Positions 5,121 through 39,318 of a DNA stretch of 64,000 nt are shown here, in pieces; position 1 is the stretch's first letter, and the number at the start of each line of letters is the position of its first letter. The notes under the pieces were generated by a model. That model searched no databases. It saw only the letters and a program-made list of their open reading frames with translations, and was not told where the DNA came from. The position numbers and the translations under genes were made by a program. The stretch covers positions 683,888-747,887 of the forward strand of contig JBAZJK010000001.1 in NCBI GenBank assembly GCA_041651355.1. Direction: 5' to 3'. The stretch is from Patescibacteria group bacterium. Its GTDB lineage: Bacteria; Patescibacteriota; Patescibacteriia; Patescibacteriales; UBA12465.

Positions 5121-6734
5121 TTATTTATTTTCTCCTGATTCCAACTTCCGTCTCACCCCTAATAGCCATAGGTTTTTCTCCAAGCGCTTTCCTGCCGCTA
5201 ACAACAGGAATATCCTGGTAATAACGATAGCGCTAAACATAGAGACGGCGACACCGATAAATAAAGTGGTGCCGAAACCTTGGACTGAAGAAGTTCCGAA
5301 GAACATCAAGATGAAACAAGTTAAGATGGTCGAGACGTTGCCGTCGCGGATTGAGGGCCAAGCTCTTTTAAACGCGTTATCTAGGCCCAGACTTAAAGAC
5401 TTGCCTTCCCGTAGCTCTTCCCGAAGACGGGCAAAAATCAAGATGTTCGCGTCGACGGCAATCCCGATAGACAAGATGAAGCCGGCGACACCGGATAAGG
5501 ACAGGGTGACTGGCTTTAAAGCGTAAAAGAACAATAAGATGCCCACCACCACGAACAAAAGGGACATGACGCCATTAAATAATTTCAATTCATTAAAAGT
5601 ATAGAACATGAGACTGACCATCAGGGCCACAATAATCAAGGCAAACCAGACTGGCAGGGCTTTAAATATCGCCAATACGGTCAAACCGTAAACCAATAAA
5701 GAAATAACGGACAAGAAGCCTGGTAAACGATAATATAAGATCATGAACAAAGACACAAGAAGTAAACCGATCAAACCGGCTTTCAAACTATTATCGATTG
5801 ACTTAGAACCCAAACTTGCTTCGACCGTCTTCTGGGATACCAAAGAAATAGGTACTGGCAGAGCTCCGGAATTCAAACGCTTAACCAACATCTTAGCCTC
5901 ATCGGTAGAAAACTTGCCGGAAATGACCGCCTGCCCCCCGGTAATCTTATCATTAACGGTGGGAGAACTAATCAAATATCCATCCAAAAAGATCGCTACC
6001 GGTTTGCCAATATTACGACCAGTAATATCTTCGAATAATTTAGAACCATCATTATCAAATTCCAAAGATACTTCCGGGCTGCCATCCTGACCATTAAAAG
6101 TCAGGTTGGCCCGCTTCAAATTCTTTCCAGTTAACTCTGTATTTTTCCAAGAGGCATTTAGATTAAGATTGACCGGAGTGGCCGTCGCTTGGCCATCTTT
6201 TCCAGGAGTAACTTCTACTGGCTGAGCCGCTATCTCGCCCTGTTCCTTGAATTCAAGCAAAGGAGTCTCGCCGATGCTCTTGATCGCTTCTTTGACATCC
6301 TTCACTCCAGCTAATTCAACGATGATTCGGTATTCGTTGTTAATTCCGCGATTAACCTGTACCAAGGGCTCGCTAACACCAAAAGCGTTCACCCTTCTCT
6401 CAATAACATCGCGAGAAGCGTCAAGGGCTCCTTGGCGATCACTTTCTGGAATATTACTCACATCGGCCTTGTAGACCAGATGGGTACCACCTTGCAAGTC
6501 TAAACCCAGACTGAAAGGCAGGTCCTTGACCTTCGGCAAAACCACGATATGGTTAGTTTTCTTAGCTAACCAGTCTTGCATCCGGTTATAATAAGGGGCA
6601 CCGCTAGCCAAACCGACCATGATGGCAAAAATGAAAATAACCGCCAAAATCCACCAAGATTTGGCGCGAACAGACATTTTAGAGATTCTTTCTCCGATCG
6701 ACATAAGTTTGAAATTTAGTATATGAAACTCCAT
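5121..6734 (-). CDS. secD: Protein-export membrane protein SecD
   Basis: LGLDLQGGTHLVYKAD periplasmic domain motif and a C-terminal RND-type TM bundle. Confidence 0.85.
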   Translation of the reverse strand: MEFHILNFKLMSIGERISKMSVRAKSWWILAVIFIFAIMVGLASGAPYYNRMQDWLAKKTNHIVVLPKVKDLPFSLGLDLQGGTHLVYKADVSNIPESDRQGALDASRDVIERRVNAFGVSEPLVQVNRGINNEYRIIVELAGVKDVKEAIKSIGETPLLEFKEQGEIAAQPVEVTPGKDGQATATPVNLNLNASWKNTELTGKNLKRANLTFNGQDGSPEVSLEFDNDGSKLFEDITGRNIGKPVAIFLDGYLISSPTVNDKITGGQAVISGKFSTDEAKMLVKRLNSGALPVPISLVSQKTVEASLGSKSIDNSLKAGLIGLLLVSLFMILYYRLPGFLSVISLLVYGLTVLAIFKALPVWFALIIVALMVSLMFYTFNELKLFNGVMSLLFVVVGILLFFYALKPVTLSLSGVAGFILSIGIAVDANILIFARLREELREGKSLSLGLDNAFKRAWPSIRDGNVSTILTCFILMFFGTSSVQGFGTTLFIGVAVSMFSAIVITRIFLLLAAGKRLEKNLWLLGVRRKLESGENK

Positions 6735-6820
6735 TAATCTTAAAAGAAAAGAAAATAAAAATCAAGCACAAAAACATCAAAAATAAGGGGAAAATAATAA
6801 AAAATGGAGATTGTCAATAT

Positions 6821-6851
6821 TTAAAAAAGCTGCCAGTTTAATACTGACAGC
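6821..6851 (-). terminator. Rho-independent terminator between the hutH-like gene and secD
   Basis: Minus-strand hairpin ggctgtcag-tattaaa-ctggcagc followed by a T tract. Confidence 0.4.
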
Positions 6852-6873
6852 CTTAAAAAATTTCAAAGAACAA

Positions 6874-8532
6874 TTATAAAATACTCAGCAATTCATCACC
6901 CTTCATCAATTTGAGCATTTCTTCGGTGTCCAGGGACAACATCCGGTCATCATCCATGGCTTTAATGTGTTTACGGATAAGCGAATAGGCAGCCCCGGTC
7001 ACCTCGCCCAAAGTATCGCAACCATGAACAGCCAACTCTTTCTCAGTTAAGGAAATGCCCTGGCAAGCAGCCAATATTTCACAGGCGATAACAAAACGGG
7101 AGTTGGCTAAAACCTTGTGGGCGTGACGCGCAGAAATCGTGCTCATGCTAACGTAATCCTCCTGATTGGCCGAGGTTGGGACAGAATCAACCACTGAAGG
7201 ATGACACAGCACCTTGTTCTCGCTAACCATTGCGGCTGTCGAGTACTGCAGGATCATGAAACCCGTATTCAAATCCTGGTGGGTCAAACCGGCCAAATCA
7301 CTGGGCAGACCATAACTGGTGCCGGTCATGGTTAAGGCATAAATACGGCGATCGGAAATGTTTGCCAGCTGCTGCAGGGCGATTTTCAAAAAATCCATGG
7401 CTTGCCCCAAAGGTTCACCATGAAAATTACCACCGGACAAAGCTTCGAAACCGCCATCAGGTTTAGGGAATATCAAGGGGTTATCAGTGGCAGCGTTGAT
7501 TTCATCGGTAAAAACACGTTGAGCATATTTAAAAGCTTCATAAGCGCTACCGGCTACCGGCGGATACGCCCGGAAAGAATAAGCATCCTGAACGCGTGGC
7601 ACCGGCTTTCCGCCTTCATCATACTTTTTAGTATGAGCGTCAACTTCTGCTTTCAGAGGCACATCTTGTGATGCTTTCGTCATTCTCTTTGAACCAGCAG
7701 TAAAACGTAAGATGGTTTTAGCGATTTTAGCCGCTCCCTGATGATTGCGGGCACCGATCAATCTCTCATCAAAGGCTGCTTTTTCACCTCTGATGGCTTC
7801 CAAAGACAAAGCGGCGGCCAGATCCGAAAACTTAAACAATTTTTCCGCGTCATAAATCGCCAGTAACCCTAAAGCCAGGGTAAAAGTTGCGCCATTTGTC
7901 AGCCCCATTGCTTCTTTAGCCCTGAGAACCAAAGGTTTGATTTTGTGAAGTTTCATAGCTTCAGGGGCTGAACAAATAGTCAGAAAGGAGTCATCATCTT
8001 CTGCCCAAACATCCTGTCCGGGCAAACCGGTTAGAGCAGCAGCCACATGGGCTAAGGGGGCAAGATCGCCGCTTGAGCCAACCGAACCCTGCTCCGGTAC
8101 ACAGGGGATTACACCTTTGTTGTAGAATTCCAGAATTTTTTCACAGGTTTCCAGGCGCATACCCGAACAACCGGTAGCGAAAGAATTGACCCTTAATATC
8201 ATCGCAGCCCTGACAACCTCTTCCGGAAAATAATCCCCGGTTTGGACGCAATGAGCTGGGATATAATGCTTTTGATAAGCATCGATTGTTTCGGTGGGCA
8301 GAATCGTACCTTTCTTGATACCACATCCGGTATTGACTCCGTAAATGATGTCACCGGCAGCGATTCTTTCTTCTAAGCCGGCCCGCTGTTTTGTAATTCT
8401 TTCTTTTGCATCATCCGATAAGGTCACTACCGGATAAAGATGATCGCCAGTTTCGTCGACGTAGCCGCGAGCAATCAAAACAACCTCTTCCAAGGTCAGA
8501 GTGCTGCCCGTAATAATAACTTGTTTTTCCAT
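6874..8532 (-). CDS. hutH: Aromatic amino-acid ammonia-lyase family protein, most likely histidine ammonia-lyase (HutH-like); the MIO triad reads Ser-Ser-Gly
   Basis: Family-wide similarity: GSVGSSGDLAPLAHVAAALTG, GGNFHGEPLGQAMDFLKIALQQLANISDRRIYAL and NPLIF. A urocanase gene is adjacent. Confidence 0.8.
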   Translation of the reverse strand: MEKQVIITGSTLTLEEVVLIARGYVDETGDHLYPVVTLSDDAKERITKQRAGLEERIAAGDIIYGVNTGCGIKKGTILPTETIDAYQKHYIPAHCVQTGDYFPEEVVRAAMILRVNSFATGCSGMRLETCEKILEFYNKGVIPCVPEQGSVGSSGDLAPLAHVAAALTGLPGQDVWAEDDDSFLTICSAPEAMKLHKIKPLVLRAKEAMGLTNGATFTLALGLLAIYDAEKLFKFSDLAAALSLEAIRGEKAAFDERLIGARNHQGAAKIAKTILRFTAGSKRMTKASQDVPLKAEVDAHTKKYDEGGKPVPRVQDAYSFRAYPPVAGSAYEAFKYAQRVFTDEINAATDNPLIFPKPDGGFEALSGGNFHGEPLGQAMDFLKIALQQLANISDRRIYALTMTGTSYGLPSDLAGLTHQDLNTGFMILQYSTAAMVSENKVLCHPSVVDSVPTSANQEDYVSMSTISARHAHKVLANSRFVIACEILAACQGISLTEKELAVHGCDTLGEVTGAAYSLIRKHIKAMDDDRMLSLDTEEMLKLMKGDELLSIL

Positions 8533-8534
8533 GG

Positions 8535-9941
8535 TTACATTGTTTTGGAAAGTGAAATAAAATAATCGCTCATTCTTTCTGTGGGGACTTCAGTTTGTTC
8601 CCTGGTAAAAAGATTCTTAACCTTGATTACATCGTGATGAATTTCATCGGCGCCAGCGATAATTACGAATTTAACATTTTGGCTAACAGCAAAGTTAAAT
8701 TGGGATTTGAAGGTTGTGTCCTCTAACAAGCAAAGCTCAGCCTTTAAGCCAAGATCACGCAATTGCTTAGCTAAACGCAAATAATAAGAATCGTGGCTAT
8801 TAGTTAATCGAAGAATCAGCACCTCAGCCGTCGTGATTGATTTGACTTTCACGAGTTCAAGCTGCTGTAAGGCGGCAAACAAACGGTCGACGCCAATCGA
8901 GGCGCCAACCGCGGGTAATTCGCTCCCAGTAAATCGGGCTACTAAATCATTGTAGCGACCGCCAGAAAAAACACTGCCAAATTCCGGAGCGTCTACTAAG
9001 ACGCTTTCGAAAACTGGACCGGTGTAATAATCTAGACCGCGAGCGATGGAGAAATCTATTTCAACTGTTCCTTCGGGTACTCCAAAATCTGACAAATAAG
9101 AAATAATTTGTCTCAACTCAGATATACCCTCTTGAGCAATTGAAATTCTGTGGAAGACGGCCTCAGCCTGGTCAAGCTTAATGGAGTTGCTGCCACTAAT
9201 CTCTAAAAAACGAGAAATCCTTGTAATCGCATCCGGCAATAAACCAGGACTTGGATCATATTCGTTCTCCGGAGTCATTTGCAGCTCAGATAAGACTTGA
9301 TTGAAGCCGATTTTAGGAATTTTATCCAAAATTCGCATTACCTCTTTTGTAATATCGTCAGCGGAAACCTGGCCTCTGCCAGACACCCCTATCAACTCTG
9401 CTAAACCGTTTAAGATCTTGCGGTTATTAATACGAATTAAGAAGCGCTTTAAACCTAAAGCGGATAAGGTTTGATAAATAATAGCGATAATTTCTGCATC
9501 TGCCAGCATAAGAGAAGAACCGGCAATGTCGACATCAAACTGATAAAATTGGCGATATCTCCCTTTTTGAGGGGAATCACTACGGAAGACTGGTCCTAAG
9601 ACCATGCGCCGCCACGGTAATTTTACCCCCTCTCTTTTCTTGTCGTTATAAGGATTGGCTGATAAAAAACGGGCGAATGGTACCGTATGATCGAACCTTA
9701 AAGATAAATTATCTTCATTACTACTTCCACGGCTTTTTACCTGGAAAATGTTTTTCGAAGTTTCATCTTCACCGACTAAAACTTTAGAAAATTCTACCAT
9801 AGGCGTCTCAATCGGATTATAACCAAAGGAACGAAAAACTCCATTAATTATTCGCAGCATCTCTTCCCTGGCCAAAAATTCGCTGGTGTTAAAATCCAGA
9901 AACCCGCCAGGCTTTTCTGGTTTGATTTTGTTTGCTTTCAT
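8535..9941 (-). CDS. Histidyl-tRNA synthetase-like paralog (class II aaRS, HisRS family) with a divergent histidine-binding motif
   Basis: Motif 2 QKGRYRQFYQFDVDIAG, motif 3 GGRYNDL, GASIGVDRL, and a C-terminal anticodon-binding domain (VKFVIIAGADEI). It has RFDHT where canonical HisRS has RPEGT. Its stop lies 2 bp upstream of the hutH-like start, so the two are probably co-transcribed. Confidence 0.7.
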   Translation of the reverse strand: MKANKIKPEKPGGFLDFNTSEFLAREEMLRIINGVFRSFGYNPIETPMVEFSKVLVGEDETSKNIFQVKSRGSSNEDNLSLRFDHTVPFARFLSANPYNDKKREGVKLPWRRMVLGPVFRSDSPQKGRYRQFYQFDVDIAGSSLMLADAEIIAIIYQTLSALGLKRFLIRINNRKILNGLAELIGVSGRGQVSADDITKEVMRILDKIPKIGFNQVLSELQMTPENEYDPSPGLLPDAITRISRFLEISGSNSIKLDQAEAVFHRISIAQEGISELRQIISYLSDFGVPEGTVEIDFSIARGLDYYTGPVFESVLVDAPEFGSVFSGGRYNDLVARFTGSELPAVGASIGVDRLFAALQQLELVKVKSITTAEVLILRLTNSHDSYYLRLAKQLRDLGLKAELCLLEDTTFKSQFNFAVSQNVKFVIIAGADEIHHDVIKVKNLFTREQTEVPTERMSDYFISLSKTM

Positions 9942-10045
9942 AGTCTGTTTTTATGGTTGTTATTCAATTTTCAAAGATAAAATACAAAAAATGTATTCCC
10001 CTTATATTAGGATAAAGCTGGAATAATGTCAACACAATAAAAAAG

Positions 10046-10078
10046 AGCCCTATTAAAAAAATAGGACTCAAAAAATTA
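10046..10078 (-). terminator. Rho-independent terminator downstream of hutU
   Basis: Minus-strand hairpin gagtccta-ttttttta-atagggctc (one G:U pair) followed by T6. Confidence 0.4.
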
Positions 10079-10095
10079 CAAAAAACTCATAAAAA

Positions 10096-12111
10096 TCAAT
10101 ATACCAAATTATCTAGTAATTGTTCATCAACCAGATAAGGAATGGTGATCTGACCATTGGCTTGATGTTTATTATTCCAAAGTGCGGCTGTTTCCATAGC
10201 GCCTTGACTTCTAGCCCAACTGCGCCGAGCGATTCCACACATGACGTCCCAAGACAGGCTGCTTTTTAAAACTTCATCTACTCTTTGACTGCCATCCAGA
10301 AAAATACCATTGCCTCCATTACTAGATCGTCCGATGCCAACGCCACCGCCGTTAGATAAAACTACCAAAGTCATCCCTCGAGCTATATTACCAGCAAAAC
10401 ATTGGGTAGACATATCAGCTGTCGGTCTACTACCATCGTAAATATTAGCAGTTTCCCGAAATGGTGAATCGGTTCCAGAAACGTCATGATGATCACGTCC
10501 AATCATAATAGGGCCTAAGCGACCATCCCTAACCGCTTGGTTGAAAGCCAAGGCGATATTTATCCGTCCTTCTTCATCAGCATAGAGAATCCTGGCTTTA
10601 GTACCGACTACTAAATCGTTGTTTGCAGCATTAGCAATCCAATGATAATTATCGTAATGAAGAGGGCTTAGGGATGGGTCTATTAAAGACATAGCTATTT
10701 GATCTGTCAAACGAAGATCTTCGTCCTTATGACTAAGACAGACCCAGCGGAAAGGACCAAAACCACGATCGAAGCAAACCGGACCCATGATATCTTCAAC
10801 ATAAGAAGGCCAGATAAAACCATCGTCAGTATTGACTTGGTTTTTGGCGATAGTCTTTTCTCCAGCCTGAAAAATGGAATTCATGAAATTATTACCATAA
10901 TCCCAAAAATGCGCCCCCTTAGCGATTAATCTCTCTATAACTCGGAAATGACGAAACAAAGATCTATTGACTAAAGCGATAAAATCGCTCGGATAATGTT
11001 TGAGCAACTGGCGGCCAGATGCAAAATCTAAACCGGCAGGAGTATAACCACCTTCGTAAACGGCATGGCAAGAAGTTTGATCGGAAAAAAGCTCAAAGAA
11101 AAAATCGTTTTCATCTAAACCCTCTAAAAGATCAACTATATTACCATAATAAGCCAGGGCTAAAGGCCGACCAGCATCCTTACTTTCTTTAGCTTTCTTC
11201 ATGATAACTGACAAATCATCAGAATAATCATCAATAGACTTTTGCTTCAGACGTAACTGAATTCGGCTATAATCGACTTCCGCAATAATGGCTACCCCTC
11301 CGGCAATTTTAACCGCCTTAGACTGGGCACAAGACATCCCCCCGAGTCCGGAAGACACAAAACAAATGCCTTGTAAATTTTTATCTTGACCCAAGCCTAA
11401 ATATTTACGAGCGGCATTTAAAATTGTTATGTAAGTTCCGTGAACAATCCCTTGCGGGCCAATATACATCCATCCGCCAGCTGTCATTTGCCCATAATTG
11501 GAGACACCCAAAGCAGCTAAACGCTTGAATTCGGTGATATTATTCCATTCTCCAACTAACAATCCATTAGTATTTATGACCCGAGGCGCTTGAGGCGAAG
11601 ACGGGAATAGCCCAACCGGATGTCCAGAGCTGACAACCAAGGTTTGGTCTTCTTTCATTACTGATAGATATTTTTTAACTAAAAGATATTGCATCCAGTT
11701 CTGGAATATCTGGCCAGTCTCTCCATAGGTGACCAACTCATAAGGATAAAGCGCTACCCCGAAATCAAGATTGTTATCAATCATGACTTGCAGAGCGCGG
11801 GCAGCTGGTATGCCTTCATACTCATCAATAGGCTTGCCGGCAATTCTACCTTCCGGTCGAAAACGGTAACCGTATATACGACCCATAGTTCGCAATTCTT
11901 TCAAAAACTCGGGAGCAAGAATCGAGTGTAATTCTTCTGGTAAATACCGCAGAGCATTAGCTATTGCTAATTTGGTTCTTTCTGGATCCAATGTTAAACC
12001 ACGATCTGGAGCGCGAAGTTGCCCTGGATCGAATGTCTTAACCGGCGGAAGCTCATTAGATAATTTAATATCCATGGCTTCAAAAACTTGAGGATTTGTT
12101 AAATTTTTCAT
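10096..12111 (-). CDS. hutU: Urocanate hydratase (urocanase), long form of 671 aa with an N-terminal extension of about 90 aa
   Basis: YGQMTAGGWMYIGPQGIVHGTYITI, GLGGMSCAQ, FDQTSCHAV, IGRDHHD and GGGVGIGRS; these are near-diagnostic urocanase motifs. Confidence 0.9.
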   Translation of the reverse strand: MKNLTNPQVFEAMDIKLSNELPPVKTFDPGQLRAPDRGLTLDPERTKLAIANALRYLPEELHSILAPEFLKELRTMGRIYGYRFRPEGRIAGKPIDEYEGIPAARALQVMIDNNLDFGVALYPYELVTYGETGQIFQNWMQYLLVKKYLSVMKEDQTLVVSSGHPVGLFPSSPQAPRVINTNGLLVGEWNNITEFKRLAALGVSNYGQMTAGGWMYIGPQGIVHGTYITILNAARKYLGLGQDKNLQGICFVSSGLGGMSCAQSKAVKIAGGVAIIAEVDYSRIQLRLKQKSIDDYSDDLSVIMKKAKESKDAGRPLALAYYGNIVDLLEGLDENDFFFELFSDQTSCHAVYEGGYTPAGLDFASGRQLLKHYPSDFIALVNRSLFRHFRVIERLIAKGAHFWDYGNNFMNSIFQAGEKTIAKNQVNTDDGFIWPSYVEDIMGPVCFDRGFGPFRWVCLSHKDEDLRLTDQIAMSLIDPSLSPLHYDNYHWIANAANNDLVVGTKARILYADEEGRINIALAFNQAVRDGRLGPIMIGRDHHDVSGTDSPFRETANIYDGSRPTADMSTQCFAGNIARGMTLVVLSNGGGVGIGRSSNGGNGIFLDGSQRVDEVLKSSLSWDVMCGIARRSWARSQGAMETAALWNNKHQANGQITIPYLVDEQLLDNLVY

Positions 12112-12203
12112 GATTCAGATTTTAATATTAAACAATTTTAAAGAACTATCTTATTAACGCTTTAAAGCAATCTTAAACCCCGTCCTGACTTAAGTCAAAT
12201 ATT

Positions 12204-12234
12204 TAAAAAGCCTGTTTCTTATTTAAAACAGGCT
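12204..12234 (-). terminator. Terminator hairpin immediately 3' of tRNA-His
   Basis: Perfect 9-bp stem agcctgttt / aaacaggct with an 8-nt loop, followed on the minus strand by a T tract. Confidence 0.45.
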
Positions 12235-12238
12235 GGCG

Positions 12239-12312
12239 GGGGTACGACGGGATTCGAACCCGCGACCAATAGATCCACAATCTACCGTTCTAACCCCTGA
12301 ACTACGTACCCC
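12239..12312 (-). tRNA. tRNA-His (anticodon GUG) with encoded G-1 pairing to C73; CCA not encoded
   Basis: Manual fold gives G(-1)GGGTACG / CGTACCC-C acceptor, D stem GTTC/GAAC, anticodon stem GTAGA/TCTAT, loop TTGTGGA and T loop TTCGAAT. Confidence 0.85.
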
Positions 12313-12370
12313 GTATATTTGAAAAAGAAAATTTTGTTTCTCAATATGTTAGCAAGAAACTTAATACCTG

Positions 12371-13039
12371 TCAATCAATAATAACTGAAGAATAGAGAGA
12401 CTTCTTGCGGCCATAAAAACTAGCCCATTCTTTATCTCCATAAGAAAAATGCCACCATTCTCCGTTAAAGGGAGCAAACCCCTCCTTGAGCAAGAGACTC
12501 CTTAATAAATAACGGTTATAACGCTGTTCTCGATTTAGACCCTTAGCGAAAGCCTTGATCTTCTCCGGCTGGCTAAAATCAGCTATCCTGGTCCCCATAT
12601 CTAATTCTTGGCCATCTTTTTCAATACTTATATCTAAAGCACCGCCAGTTGGATGGCCAGCCACATCTGGTACAGCCACAAAAGCATGGACTAAACTTTT
12701 GAGTTTTTCTTGGCTCAAGTTGGGTTTTTCTAAATTTATTTTTTTAAAAACCCTTTTAAAATACTTTTCCTGGATGGCTGGGTGGCGGTAGCCATAAACA
12801 ACTTTTAGACGAAGACTGGGGTCTTTTTTTTGTAAGATTTTATTTATCCGGCGCAATTTTAGGGCCACGGCTTTTCTGACAAAAATTTCCGGACCGCTTA
12901 TCCTCAACATATCCTTCTTCTGGTAGTGACAATTTATCTCGGGACAGAGAGAATTTAAAGAAACCAAAGGATCTTTATTTTCCCCCGCTTTGATTTTCTG
13001 TAAATCGGAATATTTAAGAATTTTTCTATTATTTAACAT
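12371..13039 (-). CDS. D-Ala-D-Ala dipeptidase, VanX/DdpX (M15D) family
   Basis: VAGHPTGGALDISI matches the zinc site SxHxxGxAxD, and EWWHFSYG is the catalytic EWWH motif. Confidence 0.75.
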   Translation of the reverse strand: MLNNRKILKYSDLQKIKAGENKDPLVSLNSLCPEINCHYQKKDMLRISGPEIFVRKAVALKLRRINKILQKKDPSLRLKVVYGYRHPAIQEKYFKRVFKKINLEKPNLSQEKLKSLVHAFVAVPDVAGHPTGGALDISIEKDGQELDMGTRIADFSQPEKIKAFAKGLNREQRYNRYLLRSLLLKEGFAPFNGEWWHFSYGDKEWASFYGRKKSLYSSVIID

Positions 13040-13104
13040 AAGTTATTTAAATTTTATCATACTGTTCTTAAAAAGCCCACCTTTATAGTGGGCTTTAGTT
13101 TTTT

Positions 13105-13683
13105 CTAATCAATCTCTCCATAGAGAAAGATGCGTTGCCGGCTTTTCGACTCAACTCCGATTCCTGTAACATCTTGCACTAAACCATCAATTTCCTTCGC
13201 CCCTAAATGCTTATACATCCTTACCGAATTACTACCTTCAGCGGCTGTCCTCACAATATAATGGGATAGGCCGAAACTTTTGGCCCAGCTCCAACGCTGA
13301 CGTATCAATTCGGTTCCGATACCTAAGCCGCGAAAATCTGACAAAACTGCCAACTCTGACATATAGCAAGCGCGATTTAGCGGGATGGGCAAAGAATCTA
13401 ACCGGGAAAAAAACAAATTTTTAACATCTTCATTAGCTTCGCCTGGCATGATGTTAAGAATCGGGATACAACAACCAAGACCGATAACCTCATCACCTTT
13501 CATCGCCAATACAATGCAACCTTTTTCCAAATGGGAATCCCAGGCAGAATAAATCACTTCCTCATCAGAATAAGTCTCAAAGTATGGCGGACCAGCAAAC
13601 ACCTCTTGGTAAACCTTAATGAAAGCTGGCTGATACTTCAGCCCATCCTTACGACTCAAAATCAGATAATTAATACTCTCCAT
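13105..13683 (-). CDS. GNAT family N-acetyltransferase
   Basis: YMSELAVLSDFRGLGIGTELI is an acetyl-CoA binding motif (Q/RxxGxG/A). Confidence 0.7.
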   Translation of the reverse strand: MESINYLILSRKDGLKYQPAFIKVYQEVFAGPPYFETYSDEEVIYSAWDSHLEKGCIVLAMKGDEVIGLGCCIPILNIMPGEANEDVKNLFFSRLDSLPIPLNRACYMSELAVLSDFRGLGIGTELIRQRWSWAKSFGLSHYIVRTAAEGSNSVRMYKHLGAKEIDGLVQDVTGIGVESKSRQRIFLYGEID

Positions 13684-14434
13684 CTGTAACCTCCATTTCG
13701 CTAGTTAGAATTACTTCTTTATCTTTAATTAAGACGGTAATAACCTTGCCGGTTGGTTGAAAAATCTGGCTAAAGCCTAAAACTTTAGCGGCCGCGATCG
13801 ACCCAGACCCGCAGGAAGATTCATAAAAGAAAGAGTCTACGCCTTTTACCCAGACGACCGGATCAATCTTGGCGGTAAACTCACCTTTACTGACCCAAAC
13901 TACTCCGACTGCTTCTCGGTTATCCAAGTTTAAAGCTTTAGTAATTTGCCGATGCTTGATTTCGAAATCAACTTCCGGAAAAGCGGCCTCAATGATAACG
14001 TGGACGATACCGCCTAAATCAACCAACGTCGCTGTTTGACCGATATCAACCGTCGAAACCTGCAAAGGCATTTCTGGAAAATGGCACTCCACTAAGAATT
14101 GGCGAGGAGCTAATTCAGATAAGGAGGCACGAACAGTTTTTGGAAAACCAGACATCGTAAATTCAACCTGGTTTTTACCAATCAACTTAGAGAACAAGAT
14201 GGCCGCCGCCCTAGCTGCATTACCGCAGAATTCGCCGCCGCTCATCTCAAAATGTTGGTCAGCAATTACTAGAAAGCCGGCCTGTTCAACGGATTTATCC
14301 TGGTTATCAAAAATTAAATCACGGCCGATTTTTTCATATTCGGCACGAGTTTTAGCTTTTGATAAAACCATGATAGCCGTAGCATTACCACCAGCGGCAG
14401 TAATGACATAAACTTTGTTTTCCATGTTTTTCAT
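13670..14434 (-). CDS. DapF-fold epimerase/racemase, probably diaminopimelate epimerase; likely start at an internal Met, whereas the ORF track starts at 14518
   Basis: Two catalytic Cys motifs, EFCGNAARAAA and SCGSGSIAAA, correspond to DapF CGNGARC and ACGSGA. The ORF overlaps the GNAT gene start by 14 nt. Confidence 0.55.
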   Translation of the reverse strand: MKNMENKVYVITAAGGNATAIMVLSKAKTRAEYEKIGRDLIFDNQDKSVEQAGFLVIADQHFEMSGGEFCGNAARAAAILFSKLIGKNQVEFTMSGFPKTVRASLSELAPRQFLVECHFPEMPLQVSTVDIGQTATLVDLGGIVHVIIEAAFPEVDFEIKHRQITKALNLDNREAVGVVWVSKGEFTAKIDPVVWVKGVDSFFYESSCGSGSIAAAKVLGFSQIFQPTGKVITVLIKDKEVILTSEMEVTDGEY

Positions 14435-14525
14435 ACATGAGATTTTTAAGGGTTTATTTTTGGTTTTAAAAAAGAGCGTTATTATTCTTCTGTTAAGAAG
14501 AGTTTGAATTACGATCAATGAGATC

Positions 14526-14855
14526 TTAAGCCAAACCCTTCCTAACAGTCAAATGGTGTTGATGCGCTCTAGTTCTCTTAATAATTAATTTGTAGCCATC
14601 CATACCAGAATTCAACCATTTAGAAATCCTGGCGACGGTCGCAGAGCTTAAACCCGTTTCTTGCTCTATGGCGGCATAGGACTGCTGGCCAGCTAGCATC
14701 TGAGCAGCCCGCCATCTTCGACTGAATTCTAAAATCTCCTGTTCGGTTAACAGGTCGCGAAAAAACCTTTGAGCTTCATCCAGATTCCTAAGCTTTAAGA
14801 TGGCAGAATACAGATCATTAATATAAATATTGTTTTTTGATTCTCCGGCTGGCAT
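14526..14855 (-). CDS. TrpR-like DNA-binding protein (YerC/YecD family)
   Basis: Small helical protein with RRWRAAQML...LSSATVARISKWL, characteristic of the TrpR/YerC family. Confidence 0.6.
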   Translation of the reverse strand: MPAGESKNNIYINDLYSAILKLRNLDEAQRFFRDLLTEQEILEFSRRWRAAQMLAGQQSYAAIEQETGLSSATVARISKWLNSGMDGYKLIIKRTRAHQHHLTVRKGLA

Positions 14856-14988
14856 AATATTACTTTATCTAAGTAAAGTGCTTTATTATAATAAAGCATA
14901 TCAAAAATAATGTCAAGCGCCAGACATTTACAAAAACATCGCTTTAACCTATAATTAGTGTTAAATAACTAAAATAAACTAAAAATAT

Positions 14989-15570
14989 ATGCCTCTAATA
15001 CCAACCGTTATCGAAAAGGAGGGACAAGTAGAGAGAGCCTATGATATCTACTCCCGTCTCCTTAAAGACCGAATAATCTTTCTTGGAGAAGGGATCGATG
15101 ACCATACCGCTAACATAATTATCGCCCAATTCTTATTTTTGGACGCTGAAAATAAGGATAAAGATATCAAGTTCTATATCAACTCGCCCGGCGGATCAGT
15201 CACGGCCGGCTTAGCCATCTACGACACCATGCAATATATAAAATCGGACATATCTACTATCTGCGTGGGCATGGCTGCTTCTATGGCTTCAGTTCTTTTG
15301 GCCGCCGGCACGCCGGGTAAGAGACTGGCTCTGCCTAACAGCGAAATCATGATCCATCAAGTCATGGGCGGCGCCGAAGGACAAGCGACTGATATTAAAA
15401 TCAGAGCTGAACATATCCTAAAAATCAAAGACAAGATGAATAAAATATTAGCCCAACACAGCGGCCAAAAAATAGCCACGATTGAGAAAGATACTGATCG
15501 CGATTATTTCATGACAGCCGAAGAAGCTAAAAATTATGGATTGATTGATAAGATAATCAAAAAACAATAA
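14989..15570 (+). CDS. clpP: ATP-dependent Clp protease proteolytic subunit
   Basis: [19 protein letters not shown] with active Ser, plus [13 protein letters not shown], across the full ClpP fold. Confidence 0.9.
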
Positions 15571-18922: not shown

Positions 18923-19260
18923 ATTTTTTGTTATATAAAAATACCTAAAATTAATCCTTTCATCAGGCTAATATAAAACTAATTACAGTATAACATTTTT
19001 TTAATTTTATCACTATACACAGAACGATAAAAATACAAAACATTGTTATTTCAGGATTTTGGGGCTATTATGATAATAGAAAAGATTTAAATTTTTAAAC
19101 AAGAAAATCTAAATCGTTCCTCTTGACAAAATCAACAAAAAAAACTAATATAACAAGTCTATCTAAAAATAGGCTGAAAGGAGCCATAAAGGCCCAAATA
19201 ACCCAGAACATTAACAAAAAAATAATAAAAACCATGCTAAACCCTTTAATTCAGAAACCC

Positions 19261-37739: not shown

Positions 37740-37982
37740 TTAACGATTATTAACGGTTTCTTCTAGTTTCCCGATTTTGCGCAGATATTCTTTCTTTTTG
37801 CGCATATCCAAGCTAATCAAGGCAGACTTCTTGACCTGGCGCTTAGTCTTCTTCGGTTCCAAATATTTTTTGGAACGAGCTTTTTCTAAGCGTTTACTAT
37901 TCTTCAAGGCCTTCTTGAACTTACGCAAGAAACTTTCAAAACTTTCTCCTGGTTTACGTTTTAAATCAGCCATATAAAACAC
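37740..37982 (-). CDS. rpsU: 30S ribosomal protein S21
   Basis: 80-aa basic protein; ESFESFLRKFKKALKNS...KKYLEPKKTKRQVKKSA follows the S21 pattern (RRFKR...EKPS..RKR). Confidence 0.55.
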   Translation of the reverse strand: MFYMADLKRKPGESFESFLRKFKKALKNSKRLEKARSKKYLEPKKTKRQVKKSALISLDMRKKKEYLRKIGKLEETVNNR

Positions 37983-39318
37983 CTCTCTTTCTATTTATTT
38001 TTTTCTCTAATTTATCCTTAATTTTCTTATAAGGCACAACCTCTTGGACGGCCGAATCCATATCACGCATAATAATGGTTTCATCCATCACTTCCTTCTT
38101 CCCTAAAATCAAACTTAATTTAGCCTTCATATTAGTCGCTTCTTCCATTTGATTCTTCAAGCTATCAGAACAGAAAGAATGACGAACGTTAAATCCGGCC
38201 TTCCTTAAATCTTCAAATAACAACAAAGATTTTATTTTTGCTTGCTCGCCTAGCTGTCCGATAAAAATAATATCGTCAGCCGGAACATAGAATAGATCTC
38301 GATTATCTTTAGCCTTAATCACTGTTCTCTCCAAACCGATTGCTAAGCCAGCGGCTGGAGTAGCCGGACCGCCAAAAGATTCGATCAAAGTATCAAAACG
38401 CCCGCCGCCAGCCAAAGCTAATTTGCTCTGAGCGACGCCATCCTCTGATACCGGCCAAAACTCAAATACTGTATCGTTATAATATGACAAACCTCTCACT
38501 AGATAAGGATTGAAATTATAGTTAATACCTAATTCATCCAAGTGCTCTAAGGCTTTTTTGAAATGATCTCGACTCGCTTCATTTAAATAATCAGCGATCT
38601 GCGGCGCCTCTTCTTTCATCTTAGCGCAAGCGTCTTCCTTACAATCCAGAAGGGTTAGGGAATTCTTACCCAGATTCTTCTTGCAAGCATTGCAAAGCTT
38701 GGAACGGCGACCGCGCTCCTTATAAAAATTAAGCAAACGGGTATTATACTCCTTGCGGCATTCCGGCCCACCCAAGCTATTAACTTGGACTTGGACGTTA
38801 ATTTTTAATTCTTTAAAAAAATTATTAGCTAAAGCGATCAAACCAACCTCGGCCATCGGTTTATTATCACCGATAATCTCCAAATCCAATTGGTTGGATT
38901 CACGATAACGTCCTGATTGCAACTTTTCCTGTCGAAAAATTGGCCCCATGGAAAAGATTTTCAAAGGCAAAGTAAACTGGTTGATATTTTCCAGGTAGGC
39001 CCGGATAATTCCTTGGGTTATTTCCGGCCGCAAGACGATCTTTTCCGCCTTTTCTCCTTCGACCCAATATAATTCCTTATCAATCGGACGCCGGCTGGAT
39101 TTTTTATATAAATCATAGCTTTCTAGCAGAGGAGTCTTTAGATAATTAAAGCCAAAATATTCCGCCAATTCATAAGCGCGATCCGAAACGGCCTTAAAAT
39201 AGCGCCAGTCAGAAGGTAGGGTATCTTTCATGCCCAAAATCCTACCAGAAGATTGAGCCTTCTTTTCGGGCTTTTTAACAGCATTATCCTTGGTGGCATT
39301 TTTTTTAGGTCGAGGCAT
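37966..39318 (-). CDS. hisS: Histidyl-tRNA synthetase (the more canonical copy)
   Basis: LRPEIT (RPEGT-like His-A motif), motif 2 QSGRYRESNQLDLEIIG, motif 3 GGGRFDTL, GLAIGLERTV, and a C-terminal anticodon-binding domain. Confidence 0.75.
   Translation of the reverse strand: MPRPKKNATKDNAVKKPEKKAQSSGRILGMKDTLPSDWRYFKAVSDRAYELAEYFGFNYLKTPLLESYDLYKKSSRRPIDKELYWVEGEKAEKIVLRPEITQGIIRAYLENINQFTLPLKIFSMGPIFRQEKLQSGRYRESNQLDLEIIGDNKPMAEVGLIALANNFFKELKINVQVQVNSLGGPECRKEYNTRLLNFYKERGRRSKLCNACKKNLGKNSLTLLDCKEDACAKMKEEAPQIADYLNEASRDHFKKALEHLDELGINYNFNPYLVRGLSYYNDTVFEFWPVSEDGVAQSKLALAGGGRFDTLIESFGGPATPAAGLAIGLERTVIKAKDNRDLFYVPADDIIFIGQLGEQAKIKSLLLFEDLRKAGFNVRHSFCSDSLKNQMEEATNMKAKLSLILGKKEVMDETIIMRDMDSAVQEVVPYKKIKDKLEKKINRKRGVLYG

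What the first reader, a model, noticed from the sequence alone, without database searches (positions are those of the whole stretch)
6874..12312. Histidine-themed block: tRNA-His, long-form urocanase, and a HisRS paralog 2 bp from a HAL-family lyase
On the minus strand the order is tRNA-His(GUG), terminator, hutU, terminator, HisRS-like gene (8535..9941), hutH-like gene (6874..8532), terminator. The HisRS-like stop and the lyase start are 2 bp apart, so the two are almost certainly co-transcribed. The urocanase carries an N-terminal extension of about 90 aa (671 aa, against about 557 aa in proteobacterial enzymes).

HutH plus HutU alone convert histidine to imidazolone-propionate. No hutI or hutG is in the window.

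Minimal CPR-type genomes rarely encode amino-acid catabolic modules. Coupling a HisRS-family protein to HAL suggests either a histidine- or tRNA-His-sensing regulator, or a substrate-handling role. A related alternative is an ergothioneine or other histidine-derivative pathway, since ergothionase and thiourocanate hydratase are HAL and urocanase homologs. The adjacency to tRNA-His may be coincidental but fits the theme.
Basis: partly seen in the sequence, partly recalled or inferred. Interest (0 to 1): 0.7.

Follow-up and report, generated by a model that had tools for sequence, protein, structure and literature searches.

The report
Conserved tRNA-His, HisRS, histidine-lyase module
A tiny-genome (Patescibacteria) bacterium carries a second, intact histidyl-tRNA synthetase fused into one operon with a histidine-degrading enzyme, beside the histidine tRNA gene; this trio recurs across several bacterial phyla and I found no report of it, so the cell seems to wire "use histidine for protein" and "destroy surplus histidine" together.

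Summary
On the minus strand lie tRNA-His(GUG, G-1 encoded), terminator, hutU, terminator, promoter, HisRS-A, 2 nt, HAL, terminator.

- **Enzymes.** All three are intact and canonical in their active-site motifs. HisRS-A is a full euk/archaeal-type HisRS with an anticodon-binding domain. It is additional to HisRS-B (37966-39318), the canonical Patescibacteria enzyme.
- **Not supported.** The regulator/sensor reading and the ergothioneine reading are not supported. The long urocanase is a known class (6UEK).
- **Linkage.** Of 72 aligned loci of this HAL subfamily, 36 have a HisRS gene within 1 kb on the same strand. They span CPR, Bacteroidota, Eisenbacteria, Omnitrophota and Ignavibacteria, in both gene orders and often with overlapping codons. 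HAL and partner HisRS co-diverge (Mantel r 0.87).
- **tRNA-His.** It lies in 27 of 43 linked loci and in none of 36 control loci, so its adjacency is not coincidental. In relatives it often lacks the canonical G-1:C73 identity.
- **Upstream block.** A HisR (YerC-type) histidine repressor with two near-consensus operators, a histidine-racemase-like enzyme, a GNAT and a VanX-like peptidase.

Best reading: a histidine-partitioning island (charging versus an overflow drain). This is inferred, not shown.

The parts
6823..6851 (-). Intrinsic-terminator-like hairpin (8-bp stem, 7-nt loop, T6) ending the hisS2-hutH unit
   Evidence: Read directly from the sequence. It was not listed by the consensus scan.
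6874..8532 (-). Histidine ammonia-lyase (HAL/HutH-type, MIO enzyme), 552 aa
   Evidence: PF00221, 502 bits. The best NCBIfam models are hutH models but score below their cutoffs (485 of 524; 450 of 539). The best solved relatives are HALs (6V6H, 303 bits). The Tyr64, His94, Ser153-Ser154-Gly155, Asn213, Gln315, Tyr318, Arg321, Phe370 and Glu458 set is conserved.
8535..9941 (-). HisRS-A: second histidyl-tRNA synthetase, euk/archaeal-like type, 468 aa, 2 nt upstream of HAL
   Evidence: TIGR00442 hisS 342 bits (cutoff 287). PF13393 plus the PF03129 anticodon-binding domain. Motif 2, HisA, HisB and motif 3 are intact. The best solved relatives are human HARS, Nostoc 3NET and 6NHI.
10004..10032 (-). 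Sigma-70-type promoter of the hisS2-hutH operon (TTGACA-17-TAATAT)
   Evidence: The -35 and -10 boxes are invariant in 5 relatives.
10045..10069 (-). Terminator-like hairpin after hutU
10096..12111 (-). Urocanate hydratase (HutU), long form, 671 aa
   Evidence: TIGR01228 389 bits (cutoff 375). Three urocanase domains. Aligns over residues 12-640 with the 681-aa solved urocanase 6UEK.
12209..12234 (-). Terminator-like hairpin after tRNA-His
12238..12312 (-). tRNA-His(GUG) with encoded G-1 (12312) pairing with C73; CCA not encoded
   Evidence: ARAGORN. Rfam tRNA 68.9 bits. Acceptor end parsed.
12371..13039 (-). VanX-like M15 D,D-dipeptidase homologue, 222 aa
   Evidence: PF01427. The best solved relative is VanX 1R44, with the metal and catalytic motifs aligned. 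Recurs with the module in L001, L005, L008, L011 and L036.
13105..13683 (-). GNAT acetyltransferase-family protein, 192 aa; overlaps the end of the racemase-like gene by 14 nt
   Evidence: PF00583. Only generic GNAT matches in the PDB. Recurs with the module (cluster 22).
13670..14518 (-). Cofactor-independent (two-Cys, DapF-fold) racemase resembling histidine racemases. The true start is probably the ATG near 14434 (about 254 aa, as in relatives).
   Evidence: NCBIfam histidine racemase models score 83 and 50 bits, far below their cutoffs. The best solved relatives are the histidine racemase entries 9CR1/9CR6 (E 1e-14), then CntK entries. Both Cys motifs (GGEFCGNA, ESSCGSG) align. Relatives carry PF26317 CntK_N.
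14526..14855 (-). HisR (YerC/YecD, TrpR-family) histidine-responsive repressor homologue, 109 aa
   Evidence: TIGR02531 78.5 bits (cutoff 42.2) and PF01371. Family function from PMC9413887.
14861..14898 (-). Two tandem 20-bp HisR-type operators (CACTTTActtagaTAAAGTA and TGCTTTAttataaTAAAGCA) overlapping the -10 box and transcription start of the hisR-like gene
   Evidence: The same tandem arrangement lies upstream of the hisR-like gene in L001, L005 and L008, with a weaker second site in L014; single sites in L011 and L022. The core motif is absent from 79 of 86 loci. The consensus comes from PMC9413887.
14888..14916 (-). Promoter of the hisR-like gene (TTGACA-17-TATTAT, 11 of 12 matches)
37966..39318 (-). 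HisRS-B: canonical Patescibacteria-type HisRS (450 aa), the housekeeping copy; 22% identical to HisRS-A
   Evidence: TIGR00442 353 bits. Large CPR-wide family at 60-65% identity. Family-invariant motifs. tblastn comparison.

Best explanation
The region is a histidine-handling island.

**Core.** The core is a conserved three-part module: a tRNA-His(GUG) gene, a complete and catalytically competent histidyl-tRNA synthetase (HisRS-A) of the euk/archaeal-like type, and a canonical MIO-dependent histidine ammonia-lyase.

**In this window.**
- HisRS-A and HAL form a bicistronic, translationally coupled operon with its own promoter and terminator.
- The tRNA and a canonical long-form urocanase lie immediately upstream as separate units.
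- HisRS-A is additional to the lineage's ordinary HisRS-B.

**Most likely logic.**
- The cell makes the histidine consumer for translation (HisRS-A plus tRNA-His) in fixed proportion to the histidine drain (HAL, then HutU where present).
- From established knowledge of these enzyme families, HisRS binds histidine with a low Km and HAL with a high Km (about mM).
- So imported histidine is charged first, and only the surplus is converted to urocanate plus ammonia, then to imidazolone propionate.
- The pathway stops there, because hutI and hutG are not encoded nearby.

**Upstream operon.** A histidine-sensing HisR repressor with two operators controls at least its own operon. That operon continues into a histidine-racemase-like enzyme and a GNAT, followed by a VanX-like dipeptidase. 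It is plausibly a histidine salvage or buffering arm.

**Shown and inferred.**
- Shown: gene identities, motif integrity, operon signals, operators, cross-phylum linkage and co-divergence.
- Inferred: enzymatic activities, the direction of flux, the partitioning logic, and the roles of the racemase-like protein, the GNAT and the M15 peptidase.
For: **Identities**
- hisS, hutU and yerC models are passed, and HAL residues are complete.
- All class II and HisRS-specific motifs, plus the anticodon-binding domain, are kept in HisRS-A and in nearly all HAL-adjacent HisRS genes.

**Operon**
- 2-nt spacer, conserved promoter, terminators.

**Conservation**
- The pair is found in L001, L002, L003 and L005, where flanking genes differ.
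- 36 of 72 HAL-subfamily loci have a HisRS gene within 1 kb on the same strand. Two more are convergent and three more lie 2-4 kb away.
- 28 of 41 HAL lineages (defined at 70% identity) contain a linked member.
- Both gene orders occur. Gaps between the genes range from an 11-nt overlap to a 2-nt spacer in many loci.
- HAL and partner HisRS co-diverge: Mantel r = 0.87, with 0 of 2000 permutations reaching it.

**tRNA-His**
- Present in 27 of 43 linked loci and in 0 of 36 control loci.

**HisRS-A is accessory**
- HisRS-B belongs to a CPR-wide family. It is on the same 881,714-bp contig, and matching contig lengths place a HisRS-B homologue in two other HAL-carrying genomes.

**HisRS-A type can serve translation alone**
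- The stand-alone Desulfobacterales HisRS nest inside its clade.

**HutU is optional**
- L001 (87% and 93% identical HisRS and HAL) lacks it, and the Bacteroidota loci lack it. So the HAL step itself is what is coupled.

**HisR**
- Operators match the published consensus and lie over the promoter.

**Age of the block**
- No compositional sign of recent transfer.
Against: - No experiment or expression data exist. The partitioning logic rests on Km values recalled for other organisms' enzymes.
- The HAL scores fall below the curated hutH equivalog cutoffs.
- The window's hisS2-hutH promoter has no HisR site (best position-weight-matrix score 3.6), so there is no demonstrated histidine-responsive control of the pair.
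- A simple overflow valve does not obviously need its own synthetase and tRNA.
- In many relatives the module tRNA-His has non-canonical identity elements (A73 or U73, G1.U72, no encoded G-1). That hints at something more specialised than housekeeping charging.
- Co-divergence could partly reflect shared organismal phylogeny.
- The locus sample is restricted to the HAL subfamily that matches two peptide patterns.
Confidence: 0.5

Rival explanations
1. The module encodes a dedicated, partly orthogonal HisRS/tRNA-His pair whose His-tRNA is used for something other than, or in addition to, bulk translation. One possibility is tRNA-dependent transfer of histidine by the neighbouring GNAT onto a cell-wall or small-molecule acceptor. 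Another is a stress-specific charging system. HAL would be physically or functionally attached to it.
For: - Module tRNA-His genes in relatives often lack canonical G-1:C73. Instead they show U-1:A73, A-1:U73, or A73 with G1.U72. The last is the signature of the orthogonal Caulobacter-type pair (PMC3064791).
- These tRNAs are structurally genuine (62-68 bits).
- In L023 and L059, two different HisRS types each sit beside a different tRNA-His type.
- CPR genomes of about 1 Mb keep 2-3 HisRS genes.
- A GNAT, an M15 cell-wall-type peptidase and a racemase recur with the module, in a different order in the Saccharibacteria locus L036.
Against: - In this window the tRNA-His is fully canonical (G-1:C73, G1:C72), and no other tRNA-His is in the 64 kb. 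It probably serves both synthetases.
- The HisRS-A motif 2 loop (PQKGRYRQF) matches, by my recollection, that of E. coli HisRS, which reads G-1; no E. coli sequence was aligned here. The loop stays constant while N73 varies among relatives.
- The GNAT is a single 192-aa domain with only generic acetyltransferase matches, not a Fem or L/F-transferase architecture.
- HAL keeps the carboxylate-binding Arg, as expected for free histidine.
Confidence: 0.17
2. The linkage is mostly historical. A hisS-tRNA-His pair (functionally related genes that often travel together) became adjacent to hutH in an ancestor. The arrangement persisted, or was co-transferred into Patescibacteria, without any mechanistic coupling. 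The second HisRS in CPR is a hitch-hiker.
For: - HisRS-A is of a different evolutionary type from the native HisRS-B, and its clade also contains Desulfobacterales enzymes, which shows that transfer between phyla has occurred.
- Co-divergence is also what pure co-inheritance would give.
- HisRS-A-like genes exist without HAL (L004, L006).
Against: - Neutral synteny rarely survives to 30-40% protein identity across five or more phyla.
- Here both gene orders occur, which implies re-formation or rearrangement with retention. The genes are frequently overlapping or abutting.
- A genome of about 0.9 Mb under strong reduction keeps an apparently redundant synthetase with all its motifs intact.
- The block is compositionally ameliorated.
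Confidence: 0.15
3. HisRS-A is a non-catalytic histidine or tRNA-His sensor (HisZ-like or GCN2-like) that allosterically controls HAL.
For: - There are precedents for HisRS paralogues as regulators: HisZ with HisG, and the GCN2 HisRS-like domain. Both appear as weak hits.
- The tight translational coupling suggests stoichiometric co-production.
Against: - All catalytic and histidine/ATP-binding motifs, and the anticodon-binding domain, are retained.
- HisRS-A passes the hisS cutoff and fails the HisZ cutoff (342 against 287; 172 against 272).
- It is 60% identical to the stand-alone HisRS of Desulfobacterales.
- Catalysis and regulation are not mutually exclusive, so a moonlighting interaction is not excluded.
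Confidence: 0.07
4. The lyase and hydratase act on a histidine derivative (ergothioneine or thiourocanate, or a toxic histidine analogue), with HisRS-A as an analogue-resistant synthetase.
For: - Ergothionase and thiourocanate hydratase are homologues of HAL and HutU.
- Second aaRS copies are a known self-resistance device (general knowledge).
- The HAL scores below the hutH equivalog cutoffs.
Against: - The MIO triad and the His/Glu imidazole-binding pair are intact in all 72 lyases.
- Ergothionase 6S7J is a much weaker match than the HALs (167 against 303 bits).
- The thiourocanate hydratase models score far below their cutoffs, while hutU is passed.
- No biosynthetic or transporter genes for such compounds are in the block.
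Confidence: 0.04

Closest known systems
Hut (histidine utilisation) pathway: HutH, HutU, HutI, HutG/HutF
   Same: The first two enzymes are present, with canonical catalytic residues and domains. HAL followed by a long-form HutU is also seen in Desulfosporosinus (L037, 60% identical HutU).
   Different: No hutI or hutG/hutF, and no HutC/HutP-type regulator, was found in the window. HutU is dispensable: it is absent in L001 and in the Bacteroidota loci. A synthetase and a tRNA gene are part of the unit, which is not a feature of described hut operons.
Duplicated aminoacyl-tRNA synthetases coupled to another enzyme or condition (for example Deinococcus TrpRS II with nitric oxide synthase, B. subtilis ThrZ/TyrZ, cyanobacterial ThrRS pairs). 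These examples are from my own knowledge.
   Same: A second, evolutionarily distinct but catalytically intact synthetase coexists with the housekeeping one and is tied to a specific metabolic context.
   Different: Here the partner is the catabolic enzyme for the same amino acid. The cognate tRNA gene travels with the pair, and the arrangement is conserved across phyla.
HisZ-HisG (a HisRS paralogue acting as regulatory subunit of ATP phosphoribosyltransferase)
   Same: A HisRS-family protein is genetically coupled to a histidine-metabolic enzyme.
   Different: HisZ lacks the anticodon-binding domain and catalytic competence. HisRS-A has both, and it scores below the HisZ cutoff.
HisR (YerC) regulon of Firmicutes (PMC9413887)
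   Same: The same TrpR-family regulator. The same 20-bp palindrome consensus (cacTTTAn6TAAAgtg). Autoregulatory sites lie over its own promoter.
   Different: The phylum is Patescibacteria. The downstream genes are a racemase-like enzyme, a GNAT and an M15 peptidase rather than his biosynthesis or uptake genes. No strong site lies before hisS2-hutH in this window.
Alphaproteobacterial delta-G-1 tRNA-His with its divergent HisRS, an orthogonal pair (PMC3064791)
   Same: Several module tRNA-His genes in relatives have A73 with G1.U72 and no encoded G-1. Two HisRS/tRNA-His sets coexist in L023 and L059.
   Different: The window's own tRNA-His is canonical. The relatives are CPR and Bacteroidota, not Alphaproteobacteria. 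U-1:A73 and A-1:U73 variants also occur. No biochemical data exist.
EpmA/EpmB (a LysRS paralogue plus a lysine aminomutase that modify EF-P). This example is from my own knowledge.
   Same: An aaRS-family gene is paired with an enzyme that transforms the same amino acid. MIO enzymes include aminomutases.
   Different: EpmA has lost its tRNA-binding function, whereas HisRS-A has not. The lyase has HAL residues, and a urocanase that uses the lyase's product is encoded nearby.

Membership tests
Histidine ammonia-lyase (HutH, MIO-dependent) | Lyase_aromatic (PF00221) fold over the full length | tested here: met
   502 bits, residues 12-520.
Histidine ammonia-lyase (HutH, MIO-dependent) | MIO-forming X-Ser-Gly triad and catalytic Tyr/Asn/Gln/Tyr/Arg/Phe set | tested here: met
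   Ser153-Ser154-Gly155, Tyr64, Asn213, Gln315, Tyr318, Arg321 and Phe370 are conserved in the window and in nearly all of the 72 relatives; the few gaps are in truncated sequences.
Histidine ammonia-lyase (HutH, MIO-dependent) | Histidine-specific selectivity residues (P. putida His83 and Glu414 equivalents) | tested here: met
   His94 and Glu458 are conserved. The residue mapping relies on alignment to solved HALs and on my knowledge of the P. putida numbering.
Histidine ammonia-lyase (HutH, MIO-dependent) | Score above the curated hutH equivalog or subfamily cutoff | tested here: not met
   NF006871 485 against 524; TIGR01225 450 against 539. A 24-36-aa insertion before RVQDAYS probably lowers the score.
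Histidine ammonia-lyase (HutH, MIO-dependent) | Converts L-histidine to urocanate and ammonia | not testable with these tools
   Needs an enzyme assay.
Urocanate hydratase (HutU) | Three urocanase domains and a score above the hutU equivalog cutoff | tested here: met
   PF17391, PF01175 and PF17392. TIGR01228 389 against 375.
Urocanate hydratase (HutU) | Long-form architecture is a known subclass | tested here: met
   573 bits to the 681-aa 6UEK, aligned from residue 12.
Histidyl-tRNA synthetase (class IIa) | Score above the hisS equivalog cutoff, with a catalytic domain and an anticodon-binding domain | tested here: met
   TIGR00442 342 against 287. PF13393 and PF03129.
Histidyl-tRNA synthetase (class IIa) | Motif 2 (FRxE/D...GRxRxFxQ), HisA (RGLDYYTG), HisB (GGRYD/N), motif 3 (GxSxGxDR) | tested here: met
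   GPVFRSDSPQKGRYRQFYQFD, ARGLDYYTGPVFE, SGGRYNDL and AVGASIGVDRL.
Histidyl-tRNA synthetase (class IIa) | Aminoacylates tRNA-His with histidine | not testable with these tools
   Needs an in vitro charging assay.
HisZ (ATP-PRT regulatory subunit) | Score above the HisZ cutoff; loss of the anticodon-binding domain and catalytic motifs; partner hisG | tested here: not met
   TIGR00443 172 against 272. The anticodon-binding domain and motifs are present. No hisG was seen among the annotated window genes.
Ergothionase / thiourocanate hydratase pathway | Scores above the thiourocanate or S-methyl-thiourocanate hydratase cutoffs; a lyase closer to ergothionase than to HAL | tested here: not met
   NF058530 260 of 930; NF058531 300 of 880. 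Ergothionase 6S7J 167 bits against HAL 303 bits.
HisR (YerC/YecD, TrpR family) histidine repressor | YerC/YecD family model passed | tested here: met
   TIGR02531 78.5 against 42.2.
HisR (YerC/YecD, TrpR family) histidine repressor | 20-bp palindromic operator of consensus cacTTTAn6TAAAgtg, typically also before hisR itself | tested here: met
   Two sites at 14861-14898 over the promoter. They are conserved upstream of the gene in six relatives, and the core motif is absent from 79 of 86 loci. The consensus comes from PMC9413887.
HisR (YerC/YecD, TrpR family) histidine repressor | Histidine as co-repressor | not testable with these tools
   Shown only for R. gnavus HisR in PMC9413887.
Complete Hut operon | hutI and hutG or hutF present with hutH and hutU | tested here: not met
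   None among the annotated window ORFs. The whole genome could not be searched.
Cofactor-independent histidine racemase (CntK / F. nucleatum HisR racemase) | DapF fold with two catalytic Cys; score above the curated cutoffs | tested here: inconclusive
   Both Cys motifs align, and the best solved relatives are histidine racemases. NCBIfam scores are far below the cutoffs, 83 of 400 and 50 of 300.

The most novel reading that the evidence does not exclude
The tRNA-His, HisRS and HAL trio is an undescribed, cross-phylum functional unit. A second histidine-charging system works as a complex or circuit with histidine ammonia-lyase. In many lineages that system has re-written tRNA-His identity (U-1:A73, A-1:U73, or A73 with G1.U72) and so is potentially orthogonal to the housekeeping pair. 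The unit would either gate histidine between translation and degradation, or feed a tRNA-dependent histidine chemistry that involves the co-inherited GNAT, racemase-like and M15 genes.
Probability: 0.2. Interest if true: 0.85.

Novelty: new variant of a known kind. Interest (0 to 1): 0.62.

Why it matters
- **Why keep a second synthetase?** Every component is a textbook enzyme, yet the wiring appears to be unreported. Here a synthetase, its tRNA and the first catabolic enzyme for the same amino acid are inherited and expressed as a unit from Patescibacteria to Bacteroidota. For genome-reduced, amino-acid-auxotrophic CPR bacteria, it gives a testable explanation of why an apparently redundant second HisRS is kept.
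- **Histidine handling without a full Hut pathway.** It also suggests how such cells deal with imported histidine.
- **tRNA-His identity.** The relatives provide a natural collection of tRNA-His genes with altered -1/73/72 identity next to matched HisRS genes. That bears on the long-standing question of how the near-universal G-1 identity rule changes. It could also supply new orthogonal pairs.
- **HisR beyond Firmicutes.** The HisR repressor and its operator are extended to Patescibacteria, with a new set of target genes.

Tried and rejected
1. **T-box, riboswitch or attenuator before hisS2.** An Rfam scan of 6500-15200 at E <= 1 found only the tRNA and chance-level hits. The leader is about 60 nt.
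2. **HisR control of hisS2-hutH or hutU in the window.** The best position-weight-matrix (PWM) scores were 3.6 and -3.2, against 25 for the true sites. Only L003/L008 has a core match upstream of HisRS.
3. **The conserved AATACA-N5-TGTATT palindrome in the hisS2 leader as an RNA hairpin.** It is no more stable than shuffles (z = 0.06). It may be a DNA operator or simply shared ancestry.
4. **Recent horizontal acquisition.** GC, GC3 and codon usage of the block are unremarkable.
5. **Genomic island integrated at a tRNA gene.** The flanks are core genes (secDF, clpP, tyrS) and no integrase is present. The tRNA is always His, its position relative to HisRS varies, and it is sometimes duplicated.
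6. **HAL insertion length as a marker of HisRS linkage.** There is no correlation.
7. **Rhizobiales loci as a source of a HutI reference.** The genes flanking HAL there looked, by my reading only, like a cyclic amidohydrolase and an M20 carbamoylase rather than hutI. I did not verify this.
8. **HAL running in reverse to make histidine, with HisRS as a sink.** Rejected on the known unfavourable equilibrium, which needs molar ammonia, and on the presence of a urocanase that consumes urocanate.
9. **Literature.** No paper in the searchable library links hisS with hutH or describes HAL in Patescibacteria.
10. **A terminator-like hit inside the HisRS-A coding region (8912-8883).** It has a poor T-tract and lies in the motif 3 codons, so I treated it as a false positive.

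Full report
**1. The observation**

The minus-strand layout is exactly as reported.
- tRNA-His(GUG) lies at 12238-12311. An encoded G at 12312 pairs with C73, which is the canonical bacterial identity set.
- Next come a 671-aa urocanase (10096-12111), a 468-aa HisRS (8535-9941) and a 552-aa HAL-family lyase (6874-8532).
- The HisRS stop and the lyase start are separated by two bases (...ATG TAA cc ATG...), with no separate ribosome-binding site.
- Terminator-like hairpins follow the tRNA and hutU. One follows the lyase too; I read it from the sequence.
- A near-consensus promoter sits in front of HisRS. Its -35 and -10 boxes are invariant in five relatives whose intergenic sequence has otherwise diverged.
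- The predicted units are therefore [tRNA-His] [hutU] [hisS2-hutH].

**2. What the genes are**

*The lyase*
- It has the full aromatic-lyase fold. Its best solved relatives are genuine histidine ammonia-lyases: 303 bits, against 167 for ergothionase.
- It retains the MIO-forming Ser-Ser-Gly and every HAL catalytic and histidine-selecting residue, as do essentially all 72 relatives examined.
- It falls somewhat below NCBI's hutH cutoffs, probably because of a 24-36-residue insertion. I call it a HAL on active-site grounds and flag the failed cutoff.

*The hydratase*
- It passes the hutU equivalog and is far from the thiourocanate models.
- Its 'extension' aligns with the solved 681-aa urocanase 6UEK. 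The long form is a known class.

*HisRS-A*
- It passes the hisS equivalog and fails HisZ.
- It has the anticodon-binding domain and all class II and HisRS-specific motifs.
- It is of the eukaryote/archaea/cyanobacteria/Bacteroidota-like type.

*The second HisRS, HisRS-B (37966-39318)*
- It is only 22% identical to HisRS-A.
- It belongs to a very large Patescibacteria-wide family at 60-65% identity.
- Its unusual motif 2 Ser is invariant in that family, so it is not decay.
- HisRS-B is therefore the housekeeping enzyme, and HisRS-A is an intact accessory copy.

*The organism*
- The exact HAL and HisRS-B proteins are on an 881,714-bp contig of a 'Patescibacteria group bacterium' MAG.

**3. Is the pairing conserved?**

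- Close relatives (87, 73, 69 and 65% identical HisRS) all have HisRS-HAL, even where the flanking genes differ.
- I fetched 80 species-representative loci around members of this HAL subfamily and scored them. Of the 72 loci in the HAL alignment, 36 have a HisRS gene within 1 kb on the same strand. Two more are convergent, and three more have one 2-4 kb away.
- The linked loci come from several CPR lineages (Falkowbacteria, Paceibacterota, Doudnabacteria, Saccharibacteria, Parcubacteria), Bacteroidota (Chitinophagaceae, Lewinella and others), Eisenbacteria, Omnitrophota and Ignavibacteriaceae.
- Both gene orders occur. The genes often overlap or abut.
- HisRS is by far the commonest neighbour family.
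- None is present in the Rhizobiales, Burkholderiales, Aminicenantes or Desulfosporosinus loci.
- Collapsing HAL at 70% identity, 28 of 41 lineages contain a linked member.
- HAL and partner-HisRS distances are strongly correlated (Mantel r 0.87, 0 of 2000 permutations).
- Six of the seven tested partner proteins from other phyla pass the hisS cutoff, and the seventh narrowly misses it.
- HisRS-A-type genes also occur without HAL, in Desulfonema and in one Patescibacteria MAG. In a neighbour-joining tree the Desulfobacterales enzymes nest inside the CPR HAL-linked clade. This shows that the type can serve as an ordinary synthetase.

**4. The tRNA is part of it**
- tRNA-His(GUG) is present in 27 of 43 HisRS-linked loci, almost always on the same strand and usually beside the HisRS gene. 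Five loci carry two copies, in tandem in L015, L016 and L018.
- It is present in none of 36 control loci.
- The window's tRNA is canonical. Many relatives' module tRNAs are not. They have U-1:A73, A-1:U73, or A73 with G1.U72 and no encoded G-1, yet they score as genuine tRNAs.
- Position -1 is frequently complementary to N73, which looks like covariation of the eighth acceptor pair.
- A73 with G1-U72 is the signature of the only characterised exception to the G-1 rule. That exception forms an orthogonal pair with its own HisRS (PMC3064791).
- In L023 and L059, two HisRS types each sit next to a different tRNA-His type.
- This lies outside the window, but it is the most surprising thing I saw.

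**5. The theme extends upstream**

*The regulator*
- 14526-14855 encodes a YerC/YecD TrpR-family protein. This family is HisR, a histidine-responsive repressor with a 20-bp palindromic operator (PMC9413887).
- Two near-consensus operators lie in tandem over its promoter (14861-14898).
- The same arrangement precedes the gene in the relatives, and the core motif is absent from 79 of 86 loci.

*The genes downstream of it*
- A two-Cys racemase whose closest solved relatives are histidine racemases.
- An overlapping GNAT.
- After a terminator-like hairpin, a VanX-like M15 dipeptidase.

*How they travel*
- These genes travel with the module in several CPR lineages. In a Saccharibacteria locus they appear in a different order: HAL, HisR, HisRS, tRNA-His, GNAT, M15, racemase.
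- I found no strong HisR site before hisS2-hutH or hutU in this window.

**6. How it most likely works**

*Shown.* Identities, intact motifs, operon architecture, operators and deep conservation of the trio.

*Inferred.*
- The island manages imported histidine in an organism that, like other CPR bacteria, presumably cannot make it; I did not check this.
- HisRS-A plus tRNA-His capture histidine for translation.
- HAL is co-translated from the same mRNA. From general knowledge of these enzyme families it has a far higher Km, so it would drain only the excess to urocanate and ammonia.
- HutU, where present, carries the product on to imidazolone propionate.
- No hutI or hutG was found in the window, and HutU is absent from the 87%-identical relative L001. 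The HAL step, not full catabolism, is therefore what is coupled.
- The HisR operon probably supplies or buffers histidine when it is scarce.

I give this reading about 0.5.

*Rivals.*

| Reading | Confidence | Main point |
|---|---|---|
| A specialised or orthogonal charging system with a non-housekeeping role | 0.17 | Supported by the relatives' tRNAs, but not by this window's canonical tRNA |
| Historical linkage without functional coupling | 0.15 | Weakened by both gene orders, overlapping genes and retention in a reduced genome |
| A HisZ-like sensor | 0.07 | Contradicted by the intact catalytic apparatus |
| A histidine-derivative or analogue pathway | 0.04 | Contradicted by active-site residues and model scores |

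**7. Comparison and novelty**
- Each part is a known family: HAL, HutU, HisRS, HisR.
- What is not described, as far as the searchable literature shows, is the conserved tRNA-His, hisS and hutH unit, its presence as a second HisRS system in CPR genomes, and the non-canonical tRNA-His genes attached to it.
- I therefore rate it a new variant of a known kind and of moderately high interest.
- Caveats: all function is inferred; the locus sample is limited to one HAL subfamily chosen by two peptide patterns; and whole genomes could not be searched.

Noticed in passing
L023:12237-15604 and L059:8352-15870: Two different HisRS-like genes each sit beside a different tRNA-His. A PRK12420-like HisRS (motif 'LRTEF', no motif 3 Arg) sits next to a canonical G-1:C73 tRNA with encoded CCA. 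An A-like HisRS sits next to an A73 tRNA without encoded G-1. This suggests two coexisting HisRS/tRNA-His pairs in one CPR genome.
   Followed up: partly
L051, L063, L066 (Chitinophagaceae), L081, L085, L061: In Bacteroidota and Omnitrophota the order is tRNA-His, then a 520-530-aa HisRS, then HAL. The tRNA has U-1:A73 or A-1:U73, and either C1:G72 or G1.U72, which is very unusual for bacterial tRNA-His. I could not determine whether these genomes also have a canonical pair.
   Followed up: partly
L010:17679-17753 and L012:17091-17165: These tRNA-His genes have two U.U mismatches in the acceptor stem (positions 4:69 and 5:68), conserved between the two genomes. They lie at the end of a block of HAL-downstream genes.
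   Followed up: no
L025 and L027 (Doudnabacteria): Three HisRS-like genes lie within about 13 kb. Two are in tandem right after HAL. The third is immediately downstream of a HisR-like gene about 7 kb upstream. One of the tandem pair scores just under the hisS cutoff (283 against 287).
   Followed up: partly
L010, L012, L014-L017, L020, L022, L024, L059 (CPR loci), within about 6 kb of HAL: Recurrent extra neighbours that are absent from this window: a 300-aa phosphoribosyltransferase-like protein, two HAD phosphatases, a SLOG/LOG-like protein, an AstE/aspartoacylase-type deacylase and a class I methyltransferase. This may be an imidazole or nucleotide side pathway. Function unknown.
   Followed up: partly
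window 39134-39153: A third exact match to the HisR operator core (CTTTA-N6-TAAAG) lies inside the 5' part of the HisRS-B coding sequence. About 0.2-0.3 such matches are expected by chance in 64 kb (my estimate), so it may be chance or an internal operator.
   Followed up: no
L001 compared with window 10096-12111 and 14856-14988: The closest relative (87% identical HisRS, 93% identical HAL) lacks hutU entirely, but has a methyltransferase gene between clpP and hisR that this window lacks. The accessory genes of the island turn over quickly.
   Followed up: partly
L004 (Desulfonema magnum) and P0024-P0115: Desulfobacterales, Electrothrix and Magnetomorum HisRS are 56-61% identical to HisRS-A and nest within the CPR HAL-linked clade. 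This implies transfer of this synthetase between CPR and Desulfobacterota.
   Followed up: partly
window 37966-39318 (HisRS-B): The HisRS-B family carries an invariant four-Cys insertion (CxxC...CxxxxC, a possible zinc ribbon). It also has Ser where I recall E. coli HisRS having the adenine-stacking Phe of motif 2 (the E. coli comparison is from memory). queA and relA/spoT are close neighbours.
   Followed up: no
window 9975-9995 (hisS2 leader): A palindrome AATACA-N5/6-TGTATT just downstream of the -10 box is conserved in L001 and L007. It is not a significantly stable RNA hairpin and may be an operator for an unknown regulator.
   Followed up: partly
L046, L065, L068-L074, L077 (Rhizobiales): The Rhizobiales members of this HAL subfamily lie between genes that, from reading their sequences, look like a cyclic amidohydrolase and an M20 amidohydrolase, followed by a double LysR-type protein. 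This is not a classical hut operon. I did not verify these identities.
   Followed up: no
window 19123-21135 and 15632-16813, 61363-62376: A 670-aa protein with a T9SS-type C-terminal sorting domain occurs in this Patescibacteria genome. The window is also rich in synthetase genes (TyrRS, TrpRS-like, two HisRS).
   Followed up: no
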